Shown: positions 26,836 through 51,233 of the stretch, in pieces | Position numbering within the stretch: the first letter of the stretch is position 1 | Layout: each line of letters starts with the position of its first letter | Virus record (IMG/VR): IMGVR_UViG_3300020045_005825 | Span: 1-51,233 of that record | Direction: 5' to 3' (one strand) | DNA length: 51,233 bases | From: a virus | Lineage: Duplodnaviria > Caudoviricetes | Translations under genes and position numbers: made by a program | Notes under the pieces: model-generated | Seen by the model: only the letters and a program-made list of their open reading frames with translations | Databases searched by the model: none | What the model was told of the DNA's origin: nothing

Positions 26836-27453
26836 ATGGCATACAATTTCACGGAATCAGGCAATTACATATATGTATCGGATTCAAACAGACCCGACGC
26901 GAATTACAACGGGGCGAAAAGCAAAGTAACGGGGTTCATTCTCGGAACAACACCCGACCCAGTTGTTAGACTAAATGGGATGCAGTCGGCACCGTCAACT
27001 GATTTACCAAACAATGGTATGTTGCTATCCGAGTGCGAAATCGGAGGCGTTGCAGCTACCGAGGAAACAATGACAACTTTCTTAGAGACGTACACAGGGG
27101 GAAAGTCTAGCGCCGGGGATTCGGCGTTGATTTACGAGGGGTATTTAGTGTCTCAAACAGATACGGACGCGCCAGTAGTTTCTTGGTTGGGTGCCGATGG
27201 CGGAATAACAATGGCTTATGTAACAGAGGGAGGATATGCTTTTCAGAAAACAGGGCTATTTGATTCGGCTAAAGTGTTTTTTGACACAACTCCTTTTGAG
27301 GGGGCAACTACCACCGCTTTATTTGTTTTGATTCCAGACTACGAGTCGCAGTCTCCAGACGGACTATACATTAAATGTCAAAAAATAACAGATGCAACAT
27401 TGCACGACAATGAAGTAAACAACGTCCGATTCAGGATAACAATTAAACAGTAA
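26836..27453 (+). CDS. tail-associated structural protein
   Basis: 205 aa; YLVSQTDTDAP motif. Confidence 0.6.
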   Translation: MAYNFTESGNYIYVSDSNRPDANYNGAKSKVTGFILGTTPDPVVRLNGMQSAPSTDLPNNGMLLSECEIGGVAATEETMTTFLETYTGGKSSAGDSALIYEGYLVSQTDTDAPVVSWLGADGGITMAYVTEGGYAFQKTGLFDSAKVFFDTTPFEGATTTALFVLIPDYESQSPDGLYIKCQKITDATLHDNEVNNVRFRITIKQ

Positions 27454-34279: not shown

Positions 34280-34639
34280 ATGGAAAATAAAAATATACCC
34301 GAAGATTTAAAAGTTTATGTCGCTGTAATTCATAAGATTTTTATGGAGCGAGCGAAAAGAGACGCTGCCAATTTAAGCCGCGATTATTTCTGGAAATGGA
34401 CTTATACAGGCGACATTGCTAAAGGCGCTGGCGTTACAGTTGAGAAAGCGAGGCGAGACTTAACAAAGCTCGAAAAACTTGGAATTATCCACGCCAACCG
34501 CAGACCTAATTACATTTCGTGGGCTTATATAGCTGACGGATGGGGGCAGCACAAGTATGCGGACTATCTCTCCCAAATCCTAAAACAACCAATTAACCCC
34601 TCATCCCGTAATCGGCAGGTTTATAACCAGACACCGTAA
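34280..34639 (+). CDS. winged helix-turn-helix DNA-binding protein
   Basis: Likely start MENKNIP; TGDIAKGAGVTVEKARRDLTKLEKLGII. Confidence 0.7.
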   Translation: MENKNIPEDLKVYVAVIHKIFMERAKRDAANLSRDYFWKWTYTGDIAKGAGVTVEKARRDLTKLEKLGIIHANRRPNYISWAYIADGWGQHKYADYLSQILKQPINPSSRNRQVYNQTP

Positions 34640-34688
34640 AGCTGACTAATTCTGAACTGAAACATCTAAGTAGGAAGCGGGATTTTTT
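34603..34688 (+). ncRNA. candidate structured RNA containing a 23S rRNA helix-11 mimic
   Basis: GAACTGAAACATCTAAGTA at 34654-72 closed by TTCT/GGAA; outer stem ATCCCG/CGGGAT then T run. Confidence 0.55.
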
Positions 34689-34716
34689 AAAACAACCAAT
34701 TAAAAACCAATAACGA

Positions 34717-34944
34717 ATGAAAACTAAATCGAAATTAGAAATTGCAGAAGCAGTCAACAAAATAGGAATACCGGATATGCCTACACACGTTAAATACGCA
34801 AATCGGTTGGCAGAAATAGCAATAGAGGAATGGGCAACCGAAATGGCGAACTCACAGGATCACGAAAATCAAATAGGTTTAAAACAATTTATTGTAGATG
34901 CTATTTTAGAAGGCATTGAAATGTATAAATCTGATTTGCCGTAA
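34717..34944 (+). CDS. hypothetical protein
   Basis: 75 aa, good start context. Confidence 0.65.
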   Translation: MKTKSKLEIAEAVNKIGIPDMPTHVKYANRLAEIAIEEWATEMANSQDHENQIGLKQFIVDAILEGIEMYKSDLP

Positions 34945-35192: not shown

Positions 35193-36017
35193 ATGAAACC
35201 AACTATTGAAAACGAGAAAGATGCGCTCTACGATGACGCGGTTAAAGTTATAAAACGGCTAAAAATGGCGTCGGCGCCAATGCTACAAAAGCATTTAGTG
35301 ATTGGCTACATGAGGGCAAATAGAATAATTGATTCACTAGAAGTAAATGGCGTCATCGGAAAGTTCGACGGCGTAAATCCACGTGAAATCTTGATTGAAT
35401 GTAATACGCCACTTTCCCCATCGGCTTCAACACCTATTAGCGATTCGTTTATAGCAATGATTGATGAAGTTGCTGAGGATTTAAAGCCCCCTATTGAAAC
35501 AACGGATGTTAAAACAGCGGAAACGCCCACAGAAATGACGCACGAACAAGCCAAAGAATTTTGTAAAAGTTTAGAGTTTGGAGACATCCTTGTCAATCAT
35601 TGGGCGAGTGACGCAAACCCAAATAAAAGAGTGATTTTTATCAAGAAAACTGTTTTAGACGGCAGGCTTTCAATATATACCGTTTCAATATCAGGCAAAG
35701 GCGACGCATATTTTCATATTTCCAAAGGATTGAATATGACTAAAGACGGTAACGCTTTCGCCGCCCTCCAAACATCCTCAAAAGTTGATGGGATTGTTAG
35801 GGAGTTGGAAGTGTTGATGCTTAGAACGTTGATAAAGCCGAATACAAGCGATAAGAGTCAAGAGTTTATTTTAGGTTACGATAATTGCCAGACTAATATC
35901 GTAGAGGACATTAAAGAACTAATCAAAAAAATCAAAGATGAAATTGAAAAAGTGAATACCGAAACTAAGCCAGCAAACCTACAATCGCTCGGCTATGATT
36001 TTGATAAAGGAATGTAG
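35193..36017 (+). CDS. FtsK gamma-domain-containing protein
   Basis: DALYDDAVKVI...ASAPMLQKHLVIGYMRANRIIDSLEVNGVIG..DG..PREIL at N-terminus; no ATPase domain. Confidence 0.8.
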   Translation: MKPTIENEKDALYDDAVKVIKRLKMASAPMLQKHLVIGYMRANRIIDSLEVNGVIGKFDGVNPREILIECNTPLSPSASTPISDSFIAMIDEVAEDLKPPIETTDVKTAETPTEMTHEQAKEFCKSLEFGDILVNHWASDANPNKRVIFIKKTVLDGRLSIYTVSISGKGDAYFHISKGLNMTKDGNAFAALQTSSKVDGIVRELEVLMLRTLIKPNTSDKSQEFILGYDNCQTNIVEDIKELIKKIKDEIEKVNTETKPANLQSLGYDFDKGM

Positions 36018-36095: not shown

Positions 36096-36320
36096 ATGAT
36101 ATACACCTTTACAATTAACGGAAATCCAAAAGCTATTAAAGCTGAAAGCCTAGATGACGCGATTGGAAAAATAATAAACAGACACTTATGGTCTTTTTGT
36201 GATAGGAAAATTAATTTTGTATGTAGCAATGACCCTAGCGCGCCAAAAGAAGAAATGGAGGTTTATACCAAAGGGCTATTTGATTGCACGCGCATGAGAC
36301 CACTATCAAAGCACTCGTAA
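36096..36320 (+). CDS. hypothetical protein
   Basis: 74 aa. Confidence 0.6.
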   Translation: MIYTFTINGNPKAIKAESLDDAIGKIINRHLWSFCDRKINFVCSNDPSAPKEEMEVYTKGLFDCTRMRPLSKHS

Positions 36321-41596: not shown

Positions 41597-43909
41597 ATGT
41601 TAGATAGAAACAAACTGCAAAAATTCCACGAACACTTTTCACTTTTAACGGTTGGCGAAGATAAAAAGCCGAACTTTAAATGGAAGCCTAACCAGAACGA
41701 CAAGTTACCATTCGATAAATTTTACAAGAACTTTGAGTACAAAGGAGGAATTAAGTTTGAGGACGGAACCGAACTACCTCCTACCACCAACTTTGGAATA
41801 ATTACGGGGTACGATCATTTGGAATGTATCGATGTAGATTTAAAGGTTTTCTCTACCGCTATTGAGCAGAAAGAGTTTTGGGAGGAATACATCGGACACC
41901 TCAAGGATAACATTCTTGATTTCGATGAAAAGATAGTCGTTTACAAAACTAAGAACGCCGGTTATCATTTGCTCTACAAATCAAAAAGGGTGCAGGGCAA
42001 TTTAAAAATTGCCGCTTTAAAAGGTCATACAGAAGCCGTTATAGAAACTCGCGGGATAGGAGGTTACATTTTTGTTTACCCTGAAAACAAGGTTAGTAAA
42101 AAGTCATATTTTGAAATAGATTATATTTCAGATCAAGACAGGGAAATTATAATGAGCTTTTCAAAAATGTATAATTACATCGATGAAAAGCCAGTCGAGC
42201 CGGTTAAAAAGAAAACCGAATATCAAGAAGGCGAGATTACGCCGTGGCAGGATTACAACGAAAAGACCGACATTTTAGAACTGATTGCCGATGAATTTTC
42301 AATACCGCCACGAGGTGTTAAAAGCAAGTTTACACTTGTAAAAAGGTTTGGCGCAACTTCGCCACACTCGGGTTATGTTTTTAAAGATAGTGGGTGCTTA
42401 TATCTTTTCTCTACCGGTACGATTTACGACCACCAGAAACTCATAACGCCGTTCATTGCCTACGCAACGAAATTTCACAATAAGGACTTTTCAGCAGCAG
42501 CTAAAGAACTTTACAATAAAGGATATGGGTCAAGGCTAAAAAAAGTTATTGAGGAAAAACAAAAATCTTTGCCATCAAACGAGGCCTTGATGACTGAGTA
42601 CAATTACAATAAATCAGACTTGGTTTTCCCGATTGAGATATTTCCAAAGCCAATACAAAGCTATATTTTGGAGTGTAATTCAAAGTTAGACGGTAATATT
42701 GATTTTATGGGATGCAGTATGTTGTGGTTAATATCACTATGTGTTGGCAACTCGATTGAAATTCAGATAAAATCGGGTTGGGTAGAAAAACCATGCGTTT
42801 GGATGGCCATGGTGGGAAAAGCCGGTATAGGTAAAACACCTTCAATAAATAACATAATATTTCCTCTAAAGAAAATAAACAGCAAGGAAATTAAAATGTA
42901 TTTAAAGGAGCTTGAAAAATTCGAGTTCTACGACAACTTAAAGGAAAAGGAAAAGGCAGATTATACCGAGGTCAAAAAACCAAAAAAGCAACAATTCATT
43001 GCCAATGATATTACGCTTGAGGCATTAATTGACCTGCACCAAGAGTGTGACAATGCGGTTGGTGTTTTTAAAGACGAGTTGGCCGGTTGGATGAAAGACA
43101 TGAATAAATATCGTGCAGGATCTGATAAAGAAACTTGGCTTTCTATGTGGGCAGGAGACGACATAAATCTAAACAGGTTAAGCAGGGCGGGGTCTTTTGT
43201 TGAAAATCCATTTGTACCGGTTCTTGGAGGAATACAGCCAGGGATTTTAAACGAATTTTATACCGATGAAAATAAGGATAACGGATTTATGGATAGGGTG
43301 TTGTTGTCTTTCCCTGACGCAAAAGTTGAATATTACAACGACGCTGAAATGGACGAGGACGTTTTATTGTGGTATAAGGAAAATGTAATTTTATTCTATG
43401 ACACGCTGAAATCTAAAATAAAACGCGATGACGAAGGTACAATAATACCGTTAAGGGCAAAACTTTCTCCAGAATCTTTAGTTGAATGGCGCAGGGTTTT
43501 TGACGAGTACACAAACTATCAAAACGCAGACGAAGAGAACGAATATTTAAAGTCAATGTATCCAAAACAAAAGGGATATTTAGCCCGGTTCGCTTTGTTG
43601 CTGCATATATTGAATGAGTTTTTTAGCGAAGGTATTGGCGGCGACACTCTTTTAGTGTCTAAAGAGGCAGTTTTAGGATCTGAAAAGTTAAGCAAATACT
43701 TTATTGCCACGGCTAAAAAGCTGAAAATAAATTCAGCAGAAGTAAATGGGATTAAGTCTACTTCTAAAACAGGCAAAACAAATGCAGACAAAATAAAGGC
43801 TATTTATGATGAAAATCCAGACTTTAACCGTAGCCAAACAGCAGAGGTTTTAGGAATCAGCAGGACGCAAGTAATTAGGATAGTAAACCAGATTAAAGAT
43901 GTAACATAG
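41597..43909 (+). CDS. primase-polymerase fused to DUF3987-type helicase and C-terminal HTH
   Basis: Prim-Pol motifs FGIITG, IDVD, GYH, ETRG.GGY; Walker A GKAGIGKT; DEL; RSQTAEVLGISRTQV; likely start MLDRNK. Confidence 0.85.
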   Translation: MLDRNKLQKFHEHFSLLTVGEDKKPNFKWKPNQNDKLPFDKFYKNFEYKGGIKFEDGTELPPTTNFGIITGYDHLECIDVDLKVFSTAIEQKEFWEEYIGHLKDNILDFDEKIVVYKTKNAGYHLLYKSKRVQGNLKIAALKGHTEAVIETRGIGGYIFVYPENKVSKKSYFEIDYISDQDREIIMSFSKMYNYIDEKPVEPVKKKTEYQEGEITPWQDYNEKTDILELIADEFSIPPRGVKSKFTLVKRFGATSPHSGYVFKDSGCLYLFSTGTIYDHQKLITPFIAYATKFHNKDFSAAAKELYNKGYGSRLKKVIEEKQKSLPSNEALMTEYNYNKSDLVFPIEIFPKPIQSYILECNSKLDGNIDFMGCSMLWLISLCVGNSIEIQIKSGWVEKPCVWMAMVGKAGIGKTPSINNIIFPLKKINSKEIKMYLKELEKFEFYDNLKEKEKADYTEVKKPKKQQFIANDITLEALIDLHQECDNAVGVFKDELAGWMKDMNKYRAGSDKETWLSMWAGDDINLNRLSRAGSFVENPFVPVLGGIQPGILNEFYTDENKDNGFMDRVLLSFPDAKVEYYNDAEMDEDVLLWYKENVILFYDTLKSKIKRDDEGTIIPLRAKLSPESLVEWRRVFDEYTNYQNADEENEYLKSMYPKQKGYLARFALLLHILNEFFSEGIGGDTLLVSKEAVLGSEKLSKYFIATAKKLKINSAEVNGIKSTSKTGKTNADKIKAIYDENPDFNRSQTAEVLGISRTQVIRIVNQIKDVT

Positions 43910-44136
43910 GTTACAGTAATGTTACACCCAATGTTACACCAGAAAATCAATAAACATAAAGGGTTCAAAGGTGTAACTGTAACATTTTTCAGATTTTAGA
44001 AAATAATTTTTTACTAAAAGATAAAAATAAAAATTAGGAATTTTTAAAATGTTACAGTTACAGTGAGCTTAACCCCCATAAACAAAGGAAAACAGGTGTA
44101 ACATATAGGTGTAACATATGTTACAGCGATGTTACA
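43900..44136. repeat. putative replication origin: 12 TGTAAC/GTTACA repeats around an AT-rich core
   Basis: Copies at 43900, 43910, 43921, 43933, 43972, 43978, 44051, 44057, 44097, 44110, 44120, 44131; 17-bp perfect inverted repeat 43972-88/44046-62. Confidence 0.8.
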
Positions 44137-44163
44137 GTAAAACTACTAAAAACGCATAAAATT

Positions 44164-44628
44164 ATGGAATGTACAACTTGCGATTTTAAATTTGCAAAGC
44201 AAGCCAAAAGTAACGGAGATTGGATGCTTAAACAGCAATGTTCAAAATGTGGACAAAGTGCCGGTAAAACATTTAAGTTTGAACTTATTGGCGGCAAGCA
44301 GAATTTACTTAAAATACCCTTGTTTGATGAAGAAAAATTACAGGGCTATTATGACAGACAGCAACAAAAACGACAGTCCGATTATGCTGTCGAGTTAAAT
44401 GAAAAACGAAAAGTTTATTATGAATATCTAAAATCTGACAAGTGGAAACTGAAACGCGACAAAGTTATGTTAAGGGATAAAAATATTTGTCAGGCATGCT
44501 TAACCAGAAACGCTACCGACGTTCATCATTTAACATACGAAAGAATTTATAACGAGCCGCTATTTGATTTAGTAGCTATTTGCCGACCATGCCATGAAAA
44601 GATACACGAGCTTGAGCGCGATGCGTAA
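44164..44628 (+). CDS. HNH endonuclease with N-terminal Zn ribbon
   Basis: YLKSDKWK.KR..V..RD...CQAC...VHHLTY...LVAICRPCHEKIH. Confidence 0.85.
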   Translation: MECTTCDFKFAKQAKSNGDWMLKQQCSKCGQSAGKTFKFELIGGKQNLLKIPLFDEEKLQGYYDRQQQKRQSDYAVELNEKRKVYYEYLKSDKWKLKRDKVMLRDKNICQACLTRNATDVHHLTYERIYNEPLFDLVAICRPCHEKIHELERDA

Positions 44629-45345: not shown

Positions 45346-45542
45346 CACCAACACCAAAAGATTTAAAAAATGCTCAGGAGTTCGTACAGCGAAAAGAATC
45401 CAAAGCGATTAGCGATATGTTTTGCTACTATGATAACGGAATGCTGATATTCTGTTCGCTACATCAGTACCTCGCCAAATACCTCCTCCACGAAGTCGCC
45501 GCTGGAAGGGTTAAGTTTACTGGAAATAGGGAGGAGGTATGA
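45342..45542 (+). CDS. hypothetical protein
   Basis: 66 aa, ATGA-coupled both sides. Confidence 0.6.
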   Translation: MTPTPKDLKNAQEFVQRKESKAISDMFCYYDNGMLIFCSLHQYLAKYLLHEVAAGRVKFTGNREEV

Positions 45543-46477
45543 AACACATATCATTATTCTCAGGAATCGGAGGTTTTGATCTGGCTTCTGAGTGGATGGG
45601 TTGGGAAAACGTAGCCCATTGCGAGTGGAACCCATTCGGACAAAAAGTTTTAAAATATTATTGGCCTAACGCAATTTCATACCATGACATCACAAAAACA
45701 GATTTCACTATTCACAGAGGAACAATCGACATCATTACAGGGGGATTCCCTTGCCAGCCATACAGCCAGGCAGGAAAACGTCTCGGAAAAGAAGATGAAC
45801 GCCATCTCTGGCCGGAAATGCTTAGGGCAATTCGAGAGATTCAACCGCGCTGGGTTGTGGGCGAAAACGTTCGTGGCCTTACTAATTGGAATGGAGGGCT
45901 GGTATTCGACGAAGTGCAGTCTGACCTGGAGGCTATCGGCTACGAGGTCACACCGTTTTTACTTCCAGCTTGTGCCGTTGACGCACCCCATCGACGTGAC
46001 AGGATTTGGTTTGTTGCTTACTCCGACAATGATGGAAGACAGGAGAATACCAAATGGAGTAGAGCAACGAGACAAGAATTTAGAGAGCAATATGAATCTT
46101 TACACCTATATGAGTCTACTTCCGACCCCAATAGCAGGGGACTGGAAAGGACAACTGAGGTCAGACGGGACAGCTTCAATGTTAAGCGGGAAAGCGAGTT
46201 TGGGATTATTGCCGACACCAACAGCCGACGACAACCCAGCGAAGAACACAGGAAAGAGGAATCAGGACAGCTTGCAGAAAAGGGCATTCCAGGAAACTGG
46301 GAAAACTTCCCAACTCAATCCCCGGTTTGTAATGGAAATGATGGGATTTCCGCCCGATTGGACGGAATTACCTTTCCTAAGTGGCGAAACGAATCAATCA
46401 AAGCAGGAGGAAACGCAATAGTCCCGCAAGTCGCCCACCAGATTTTTAAAGCAATCCAACAATACGAAAACCTATGA
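45539..46477 (+). CDS. DNA (cytosine-5) methyltransferase, alpha polypeptide (motifs I-VIII and X)
   Basis: LFSGIGG, GGFPCQPYSQAG, ENV, PHRRDRIW, GNAIVPQ; no motif IX in this frame. Confidence 0.92.
   Translation: MKHISLFSGIGGFDLASEWMGWENVAHCEWNPFGQKVLKYYWPNAISYHDITKTDFTIHRGTIDIITGGFPCQPYSQAGKRLGKEDERHLWPEMLRAIREIQPRWVVGENVRGLTNWNGGLVFDEVQSDLEAIGYEVTPFLLPACAVDAPHRRDRIWFVAYSDNDGRQENTKWSRATRQEFREQYESLHLYESTSDPNSRGLERTTEVRRDSFNVKRESEFGIIADTNSRRQPSEEHRKEESGQLAEKGIPGNWENFPTQSPVCNGNDGISARLDGITFPKWRNESIKAGGNAIVPQVAHQIFKAIQQYENL
45684..46421 (+). CDS. nested +1-frame C5-MTase beta polypeptide (TRD repeats and motif IX)
   Basis: 245 aa fully inside the MTase gene; LLxTP three times; LNPRFVMEMMGFPPDWT. 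Confidence 0.75.
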   Translation: MTSQKQISLFTEEQSTSLQGDSLASHTARQENVSEKKMNAISGRKCLGQFERFNRAGLWAKTFVALLIGMEGWYSTKCSLTWRLSATRSHRFYFQLVPLTHPIDVTGFGLLLTPTMMEDRRIPNGVEQRDKNLESNMNLYTYMSLLPTPIAGDWKGQLRSDGTASMLSGKASLGLLPTPTADDNPAKNTGKRNQDSLQKRAFQETGKTSQLNPRFVMEMMGFPPDWTELPFLSGETNQSKQEETQ

Positions 46478-48397: not shown

Positions 48398-48829
48398 TTA
48401 ATTTTTCCTAACGAGTGCGCGGCTAACGATTCGTGAGCTTTGAGTCCCTGATGGTGTTACCAAAACCCTGTAATATTGGTAGAGACTAGGGATTGAATAA
48501 AACGAACAGTTCTGGCTTGACACATCGGTAAGGGTAAAAGTTCCCGCGCCAGGCACATCATTGTAAACAACACCGTCGATGCTGCCTTGTAATTTCACAG
48601 TACCGGCAACAGTTCCTGTAACCTTTGTGATAATACACTGCACCGTTACAGATTGGTTCACGCCCTTGATGATTGCGTACTGCGACTTAGCTGTTGCGTC
48701 GGTAATCGTGTCGGTTGTTGCGTGCGTCGGCGTCGACAGCAAATTGCCTAAGTTTGTGATAGCTGGTCCTGTGACCTGTGCGTTGCATACCCCAGCGAAT
48801 AGCAATAGGGCAAATAATAGTTTTTTCAT
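48398..48829 (-). CDS. secreted beta-sandwich protein (moron)
   Basis: Signal peptide MKKLLFALLLFAGVCNA-Q; KLQGSIDG..Y, YQYYRV. Confidence 0.8.
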   Translation of the reverse strand: MKKLLFALLLFAGVCNAQVTGPAITNLGNLLSTPTHATTDTITDATAKSQYAIIKGVNQSVTVQCIITKVTGTVAGTVKLQGSIDGVVYNDVPGAGTFTLTDVSSQNCSFYSIPSLYQYYRVLVTPSGTQSSRIVSRALVRKN

Positions 48830-48905
48830 TTTGTTTATATTTTAAAGTTGGGGTAAAAATAGCAAAGTTTTTCGTATGTTTGTTATCCAACTAAAAATAA
48901 ATCAA

Positions 48906-51151: not shown

Positions 51152-51233
51152 ATAGGGCAAATAATAGTTTTTTCATTTTGTTTATATTTTAAAGTTGGGG
51201 TAAAAATAGCAAAGTTTTTCGTATGTTTGTTAT
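51152..51233 (+). repeat. exact 82-bp copy of 48805-48886
   Basis: ATAGGGCAAATAATAG...GTATGTTTGTTAT identical at both sites. Confidence 0.95.

What the first reader, a model, noticed from the sequence alone, without database searches (positions are those of the whole stretch)
34603..34688. Phage RNA element containing a 23S rRNA helix-11 mimic
Seen: TTCT-GA-ACT-GAAACATCTA-AGT-A-GGAA at 34650-34676. Known: GAACUGAAACAUCUAAGUA is the conserved helix 11 of bacterial 23S rRNA, and a similar motif occurs in group IIB intron domain I. Here 19 nt match but the closing stem differs while still pairing, which suggests selection on structure rather than a captured fragment. It sits in a multibranch fold (ATCCCG/CGGGAT, TCGGC/GCTGA, GGTT/AACC) ending in a T run. 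No other rRNA or intron sequence is adjacent. Inference: a decoy or regulatory RNA using an rRNA tertiary module, possibly a conditional terminator.
Basis: partly seen in the sequence, partly recalled or inferred. Interest (0 to 1): 0.7.

Follow-up and report, generated by a model that had tools for sequence, protein, structure and literature searches.

The report
Phage RNA displaying ribosomal helix 11
A bacterial virus carries a short, likely recently inserted stretch holding an exact 28-base copy of helix 11 of bacterial large-subunit ribosomal RNA on a predicted three-armed fold; unrelated phages mount the same helix on other stems, likely as bait for a host protein that normally recognises this part of the ribosome.

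Summary
The 19-mer is real (34654-34672) and is the apex of 23S helix 11 (H11). Its closing stem is not novel: 28 nt match Apibacter 23S exactly, ending at the H11 boundaries. In IMG/VR, 7 of 9 exact hits lie outside rRNA, all in sense orientation, non-coding and on stems (after genes, inside phage tmRNA, before a tRNA). Two control rRNA patterns gave 2 of 12 hits outside rRNA. One whole-element homologue (L369) lies in a 130-kb phage that shares one protein with this one. It keeps the three-way junction (AA, CUAA and 0-nt linkers) and the U6 tail, with compensatory changes in P1 and P2; this rests on n=2. A 16-bp perfect direct repeat brackets the element, suggesting recent insertion. The group IIB intron link and the GGTT/AACC helix were not supported. 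Best reading: a terminator-like cassette that presents H11 as bait for a host H11-binding factor. A protein-sensing attenuator is the main rival. Expression, binding and termination are untested. This scan noted similar phage copies of other 23S helices (H13, H11-13, GTPase centre) on other DNA before; my paper searches found none described.

The parts
34280..34639 (+). Upstream helix-turn-helix-like ORF (119 aa); its last codons run through P1 5' strand and P2
   Evidence: weak Pfam HTH_DeoR E 0.003, below cut-off; HTH-type clusters in ESM Atlas; tail after the conserved DY is 23 aa versus 4-7 in 19 of 22 homologues
34581..34596 (+). Direct repeat, copy 1 (16 bp, perfect)
   Evidence: the only exact repeat of 14 nt or more with spacing under 600 nt in the 51-kb window
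34603..34609 (+). P1 5' strand (pairs with 34677-34683)
   Evidence: pair probability 0.80-0.97; homologous P1 in L369 with different sequence
34610..34611 (+). Junction J1/2, AA
   Evidence: identical in L369
34612..34645 (+). P2 arm (34612-34616 with 34641-34645; variable distal part; TAACC in the loop in both copies)
   Evidence: register supported by L369, not by the single-sequence MFE
34646..34649 (+). Junction J2/3, CTAA
   Evidence: identical in L369, also before the stem in L005
34650..34676 (+). P3: copy of 23S rRNA helix 11 (4-bp stem plus 19-nt apex with the GAA/AGUA bulged-G module); 34650-34677 identical to Apibacter 23S
34677..34683 (+). P1 3' strand, directly adjoining P3 (no linker)
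34683..34688 (+). T6 run directly after P1 (terminator-like)
   Evidence: sequence; also after P1 in L369 and after the long H11-capped hairpin of L003; not called by the terminator scan, which allows loops of 3-8 nt only
34688..34703 (+). Direct repeat, copy 2; start of the A-rich leader of the next gene
34717..34944 (+). Downstream 75-aa ORF of unknown function

Best explanation
The element is a phage cassette carrying a verbatim copy of 23S rRNA helix 11 on a predicted three-way junction closed by a helix and a U run, and it likely acts as bait that binds a host factor recognising helix 11. Shown: the H11 copy with native boundaries; recurrence of H11 on six different scaffolds in nine phage records; a second copy of the whole junction in an unrelated phage; the bracketing 16-bp repeat. 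Inferred: H11 was captured from a Bacteroidota-type 23S gene and the cassette entered this genome by recombination at an A-rich gene leader. It would be transcribed with the surrounding small-ORF region, and P1 plus the U run would give a partly terminated, protected 3' end that leaves H11 exposed. The exposed helix would titrate a host protein: an H11-binding ribosomal or assembly protein (bL28 is a recalled candidate, as the positional counterpart of eL15), or an rRNA-directed defence nuclease.
For: 7 of 9 exact viral hits lie outside rRNA, against 2 of 7 and 0 of 5 for control 16S and 23S patterns. 24 variant 19-mers gave 5 independent hits: four lie in frames open for 116-272 aa, and the fifth is the homologue L369. 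Closing stems pair in 93.8% of cells with two-sided changes at 3 of 4 pairs; 0 of 500 shuffles reach the covariation score and slid registers score far lower. 18 of 19 apex bases are invariant in 8 aligned copies; the one change (C to T) occurs at the same position in 3 of 56 matches in Bacteroidota genomes. In the part of IMG/VR scanned (21 of 64 parts), stems of 8 bp occurred only with the native AAACAT cap, so a generic bulged-G hairpin does not explain it. All 9 copies are in sense orientation between same-strand genes or in or next to tmRNA and tRNA; stable-RNA hosts suit an abundant decoy. The L369 junction geometry is met by 276 of 25,636 background sites at the loose threshold. H11 is a protein contact (eL15, wheat ribosome preprint passages) and an inter-domain contact (H11/H37, PMC9935924 passage).
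Against: No expression, binding or phenotype data. The whole-junction model rests on two sequences, and energy models prefer other registers for P2 in both (z -0.65 and -1.02). The stem covariation largely mirrors native 23S stem variation (26-28 nt exact matches to fetched rRNAs for 7 of 8 copies), so it may be inherited from separate captures rather than selected in phages. One variant hit inside a long frame (L013) also has a 4-bp stem. No H11-directed defence protein or bacterial H11 leader turned up in my searches. The direct repeat suggests a recent arrival that might be neutral here.
Confidence: 0.4

Rival explanations
1. Cis-acting protein-sensing attenuator: binding of a free ribosomal protein to H11 would stabilise the junction so that P1 plus U6 terminates, tying expression of the downstream phage genes to the host's ribosome-assembly state, as ribosomal leaders do. 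A ribosome reading the upstream ORF through P1 would add translational coupling.
For: U run directly after the outer helix in both whole elements and in L003; same-strand gene 40-44 nt after the H11 apex; stop codons of an upstream frame inside the element in both; alternative folds that break the H11 stem or shift P2; an archaeal eL15 leader resembles the bulged-G module of its rRNA site (PMC7247131 passages).
Against: Copies in tmRNA (L004, L006), before tRNA-Gly (L009), and in L001, L002 and L005 have no U run within 40 nt. Downstream genes are unrelated to each other and none was identified as a ribosomal protein. P1 is predicted to form with or without a ligand (p about 0.97).
Confidence: 0.25
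2. Neutral or selfish captured rRNA fragment: short H11 pieces are picked up from host 23S genes and persist on hairpin cassettes that spread by recombination at A-rich leaders, with no function of the H11 sequence.
For: Identity to native 23S includes the stems; 16-bp direct repeat; removing one repeat unit gives a compact stop-to-start junction and a tail of 12 aa, close to the 11 aa of the nearest homologue; same element in phages that share one protein.
Against: Control rRNA patterns gave no isolated, stem-mounted captures. Identity stops at H11 ends and upstream flanks do not align to H10 (12 of 60 shuffles score as well for the window). In L369 the apex keeps 18 of 19 bases while P1 and P2 have changed almost wholly. 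One copy per record in every record searched. L369 has no flanking repeat.
Confidence: 0.18
3. Partner-free structural cap: H11 is a compact self-folding bulged-G hairpin used to rigidify terminators and stable RNAs or to block 3'-5' decay.
For: Always at the apex of a helix, often just after a stop codon or in a stable RNA; sarcin-ricin-type motifs are recurrent modular units (PMC8450098 passages).
Against: The whole 19-nt apex, not just GAA/AGUA, is kept; other caps were not seen on long stems except one 6-bp case (L141) among 76 distinct hits.
Confidence: 0.12
4. Relic of a group II intron domain I.
Against: No Rfam group II hit near the element even at E 10; no 19-mer within 6 mismatches in 10 group II D1-D4 loci; none of 119 metagenome or 94 genome exact hits was an intron.
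Confidence: 0.03

Closest known systems
Helix 11 of bacterial 23S rRNA (Rfam RF02541, domain I; about E. coli 183-213, numbering recalled)
   Same: 28 nt identical to Apibacter 23S; stem, GAA/AGUA bulged-G module and AAACAU cap all kept
   Different: Stand-alone in a phage spacer; no H10, H12 or H13 beside it; mounted on a new three-way junction with a U tail
rRNA-imitating ribosomal leaders, especially the eL15-Euryarchaeota candidate (PMC7247131, passages read)
   Same: A piece of rRNA-like structure placed upstream of a gene, with terminator-like features; eL15 binds H11 in eukaryotic ribosomes (10.1101/2023.05.22.541707, passages)
   Different: In phages, not before ribosomal-protein genes; a verbatim copy rather than a loose imitation; the same module also sits in tmRNA and tRNA arrays
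Sarcin-ricin (loop E, bulged-G) motif (PMC8450098, passages read)
   Same: GAA/AGUA strands present; LSU H11 is a listed instance
   Different: The motif is generic; here the full H11 cap is conserved
Phage decoy RNAs such as pseudo-ToxI of phage PhiTE and RNA anti-CRISPRs (recalled, not checked here)
   Same: A phage copies a short host RNA to engage a host protein
   Different: The copied RNA is ribosomal; target unknown; single copy, not an array
Phage copies of other 23S helices noted earlier in this scan (H13 hairpin e1-5320406; H11-13 RNA e1-5511748; GTPase centre e1-6082432, e1-9816151); AI notes
   Same: One conserved 23S helix grafted on varied stems, tRNA arrays and tmRNA
   Different: H11 alone; junction-plus-U-tail scaffold in a small phage without tRNA genes; direct repeats

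Membership tests
23S rRNA gene or decayed rRNA gene | Homology extending beyond one helix (H10 upstream, H12/H13 downstream) | tested here: not met
23S helix 11 module | 19-nt apex GAACUGAAACAUCUAAGUA | tested here: met
23S helix 11 module | Closing stem of native type | tested here: met
   4 of the native 5-6 bp kept
23S helix 11 module | Three-dimensional bulged-G fold | not testable with these tools
   inferred from sequence identity; PMC8450098 lists H11 as an S/R motif
Ribosomal leader (r-leader) | Lies upstream of ribosomal-protein genes | tested here: not met
   downstream ORFs have no such family
Ribosomal leader (r-leader) | Binds a ribosomal protein and represses downstream genes | not testable with these tools
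   needs pull-down and reporter
Intrinsic terminator | GC-rich helix directly followed by a U tract | tested here: met
   P1 7 bp plus T6
Intrinsic terminator | Short loop (3-8 nt) | tested here: not met
   67-nt branched interior; not listed
Intrinsic terminator | RNA 3' ends at the U tract | not testable with these tools
   no sequencing run was listed
Group II intron (IIB) | Domains I-VI, D5 hairpin, RT ORF nearby | tested here: not met
Antisense RNA to 23S | Transcribed strand complementary to rRNA | tested here: not met
   all 9 copies are in the sense of flanking genes, tRNA or tmRNA; the transcribed strand is inferred from gene orientation
Insertion element with target duplication | Direct repeats at both ends | tested here: inconclusive
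   16 bp in the window, none in L369
Insertion element with target duplication | Empty allele in a relative | tested here: inconclusive
   no close relative found; protein tail length fits only

The most novel reading that the evidence does not exclude
Bacteroidota phages exchange a small mobile RNA cassette that displays 23S helix 11 to neutralise an undiscovered host defence or quality-control factor aimed at this helix; with the H13 and GTPase-centre copies seen elsewhere, phage rRNA look-alikes would map which ribosome sites bacteria attack or monitor during infection.
Probability: 0.25. Interest if true: 0.86.

Novelty: new variant of a known kind. Interest (0 to 1): 0.63.

Why it matters
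rRNA imitation is known from bacterial ribosomal leaders. A verbatim 23S helix grafted by unrelated phages onto terminator-like hairpins, tmRNA and tRNA arrays implies a host factor that reads H11 outside the ribosome. The 86-nt element is a ready bait to find that factor, and could expose an rRNA-directed defence or a phage sensor of ribosome assembly.

Tried and rejected
Rfam: nothing at gathering score in the window, three chance hits at E up to 10 near the element. No tRNA or tmRNA in the window. H10 relic upstream of H11 (a CACCGTAA resemblance): rejected, 12 of 60 shuffles score as well. Group IIB intron motif: not found in 10 intron loci, whose subclass I did not determine, nor in paper searches. 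Further whole-element homologues: none beyond L369 in a junction-pattern scan of IMG/VR (12 hits: L369 itself and 11 without an H11 apex), in GenBank phages or in 401 Bacteroidota genomes (not found in those searched). All 119 metagenome and 94 genome exact hits were rRNA (116 and 91 by signature, 3 and 3 by eye); the metagenome scan covered 1 of 64 parts and was swamped by rRNA. The 21 GenBank phage-collection hits look like host rRNA or chromosome contigs by their titles and sizes; the 557 plasmid hits were not classified. Orthologous loci of the upstream gene: none in viral contigs; the G011 phage lacks that gene. Sequencing runs: none was listed, which is no evidence on expression. A covariance model of the hairpin found no second copy in any record searched. 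H13 motif in five records: one 2-mismatch hit, not followed. No TAnnTTTG promoter motif (recalled Bacteroidota consensus) within 500 nt upstream of either whole element. Papers PMC8250186, PMC6125677, PMC6795143 and 10.1101/2021.05.21.445086: passages read, irrelevant. No supplements were read; those of PMC7247131 may show the eL15 site's helix number.

Full report
Observation. The 19-mer GAACTGAAACATCTAAGTA lies at 34654-34672, once in the window, with 0.02 hits expected by chance at up to 3 mismatches. The Rfam bacterial LSU alignment of a true rRNA hit shows that it is the apex of the hairpin between H10 and H12/H13, drawn as a 6-bp stem, a 5x6 internal loop and a GA/UC pair of pairs around AACA. 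PMC8450098 (passages) lists LSU H11 as a sarcin-ricin-type motif; the GAA/AGUA strands are its signature (assignment of strands from my own knowledge). The 86-nt element folds no better than shuffles (z -0.65). Rfam finds nothing else in the window.

Host and setting. The window is a phage genome (terminase, portal, tape measure, primase-helicase), listed as 82% complete. Only 1 of 53 long ORFs has an SD-like site and 32 have A at -3. The primase matches Cellulophaga phages among others. Together these point to a Bacteroidota host (the initiation rule is recalled). The element sits between an HTH-like ORF (34280-34639) and a 75-aa ORF of unknown function (34717-34944), in a region of small same-strand ORFs.

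The stem is native. A scan of 185,579 species genomes for the motif with a TCT/RGA stem gave 94 hits, all 23S genes and many from Bacteroidota; Apibacter adventoris matches the window over 28 nt, 34650-34677. The other phage copies likewise match some fetched 23S over 26-28 nt, except L009 (24 nt). Identity ends at the H11 boundaries; an apparent H10 relic upstream is not significant (12 of 60 shuffles).

Recurrence in phages. IMG/VR holds 9 exact hits: 2 rRNA (L007, L008) and 7 outside rRNA. L001 and L002 are related and carry an 8-bp stem after a small ORF, with tRNAs downstream in L001. L003 has H11 capping a long hairpin (z -4.4) with a U run after a stop codon. L004 and L006 carry it inside a phage tmRNA, about 285-290 nt from its start. 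L005 has it in a gene spacer and L009 directly before tRNA-Gly in a tRNA array. All are in the sense of their neighbours and outside long sense frames. Controls: a 16S 19-mer gave 7 hits, 5 in rRNA; a four-fold degenerate 23S pattern gave 5 hits, all rRNA or rRNA fragments. Nine variants at two positions gave 6 loci (4 independent), all inside frames open for 116-272 aa, one with a 4-bp stem. Fifteen more variants gave one new locus, L369. At 5 hits per 24 variants, 5 independent families have P about 3e-6. A scan with a free cap (21 of 64 parts covered, 118 loci parsed, 76 distinct) found 8-bp stems only with AAACAT, and one 6-bp stem with another cap. Over 8 aligned copies (L006 left out as a near twin of L004) 18 of 19 apex bases are invariant. 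The 4-bp stem pairs in 93.8% of cells with two-sided changes at 3 of 4 pairs, 0 of 500 shuffles reach the score, and slid registers are far lower. Much of this variation mirrors native stems, so it shows repeated capture of the intact helix as much as co-evolution in phages.

A whole-element homologue. L369 lies in a complete 130-kb phage (G011) that shares one protein with the window; the element is the best DNA match between them. Both fit one model: P1 ending in U.G, an AA linker, P2, a CUAA linker, P3 (H11), no linker back to P1, then six T, an A-rich leader and an ATG 40-44 nt after the apex. Near the junction P1 reads C-G, C-G, G-C, U.G in the window and C-G, G.U, G-C, U.G in L369. P2 reads U-A, C-G, G.U, G-C, C-G against C-G, C-G, A-U, A-U, A-U, U-A. 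That gives four two-sided changes in register. This geometry occurs at 276 of 25,636 background sites at the loose threshold (P2 at least 5, P1 at least 4), and at 0 with L369's own, post hoc, lengths. L369's one apex change (C to T) also occurs in 3 of 56 matches in 91 Bacteroidota genomes, whose rRNA context I did not check. Against: n is 2, and with the apex held unpaired the partition function keeps P1 (p about 0.97) but shifts P2 in the window and pairs P2's 3' strand with the H11 stem in L369. Energy models lack the bulged-G module, so this may be artefact or a real switch.

Insertion signature. A perfect 16-bp repeat brackets the element (34581-34596 and 34688-34703); it is the only exact repeat of 14 nt or more at short range in the window. 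Leaving out one unit makes the upstream ORF end after 108 aa at the TAA at 34711-34713, three bases before the next ATG. The tail after the conserved DY would be 12 aa instead of 23. The closest homologue (64%) has 11, 19 of 22 aligned homologues (22 of 46 found were aligned) have 4-7, and two have 18 and 21. This fits a recent gain by recombination at an A-rich leader, but no empty allele was found and L369 has no such repeat.

Mechanism. What all copies share is the intact H11 apex exposed on a helix in sense RNA. H11 contacts a protein (eL15 in plant ribosomes; 10.1101/2023.05.22.541707, passages) and H37 during 50S assembly (PMC9935924, passage). An archaeal eL15 leader partly resembles the bulged-G module of its rRNA site (PMC7247131, passages). 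That bL28 takes eL15's place in bacteria is recalled. I favour bait for a host H11-binding factor (0.40), because tmRNA and tRNA-array copies lack a U run and cannot be attenuators, and because the cassette sits among small ORFs and appears mobile. A protein-sensing attenuator (0.25) fits the three copies with a U run. Neutral capture (0.18), a partner-free cap (0.12) and an intron relic (0.03) follow. Expression, folding, binding and termination are all untested.

Novelty. Paper searches for the sequence (8 papers, none on phage RNA by title or abstract start), for helix 11 with group II introns and for phage rRNA mimics or decoys found no description; the library lacks most subscription papers. 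The scan's own notes report phage copies of H13, H11-13 and the GTPase centre on other DNA, but no look-alike of this element. It works like an rRNA-imitating leader or a decoy RNA but is not a ribosomal leader by gene context: a new variant of a known kind, interest 0.63.

Noticed in passing
window 45539-46477 and 45684-46421: Two long overlapping ORFs in different frames on the same strand both match DNA methyltransferase families (phrog_363, phrog_1008), like the two-polypeptide C5 methyltransferases with a nested frame (M.EcoHK31I, recalled).
   Followed up: no
window 43894-44150: Cluster of TGTAAC/GTTACA direct and inverted repeats just after the primase-helicase gene; likely replication origin.
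   Followed up: no
window 48805-48886 and 51152-51233: Exact 82-nt repeat, the second copy at the contig end; assembly overlap or a duplicated promoter region.
   Followed up: partly
window 27242-27265, 36262-36285, 44546-44569: Three copies of a GCTATTTGATT-containing motif in spacers; possible phage promoter or operator.
   Followed up: no
L004:118-523 and L006:111-522: Phage tmRNAs whose region 3' of the tag frame carries the H11 hairpin where pseudoknots usually lie.
   Followed up: partly
L001:435-495 and the matching stretch of L002: A conserved segment of about 60 nt (CTGATGTGAGCGGATATTCATACTTCCGATAAA core) follows the H11 hairpin in two related phages; no Rfam hit.
   Followed up: partly
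L352:10037-10111 (G005, 365-kb phage): tRNA with CUA anticodon, suggesting amber read-through or a recoded stop.
   Followed up: no
L360 (104.7-kb viral record): Interior fragment of about 100 nt resembling eukaryotic LSU rRNA in an AT-rich setting.
   Followed up: no
window 35193-36017: Phage protein with an N-terminal FtsK gamma (KOPS-reading) domain, two genes downstream of the element.
   Followed up: no
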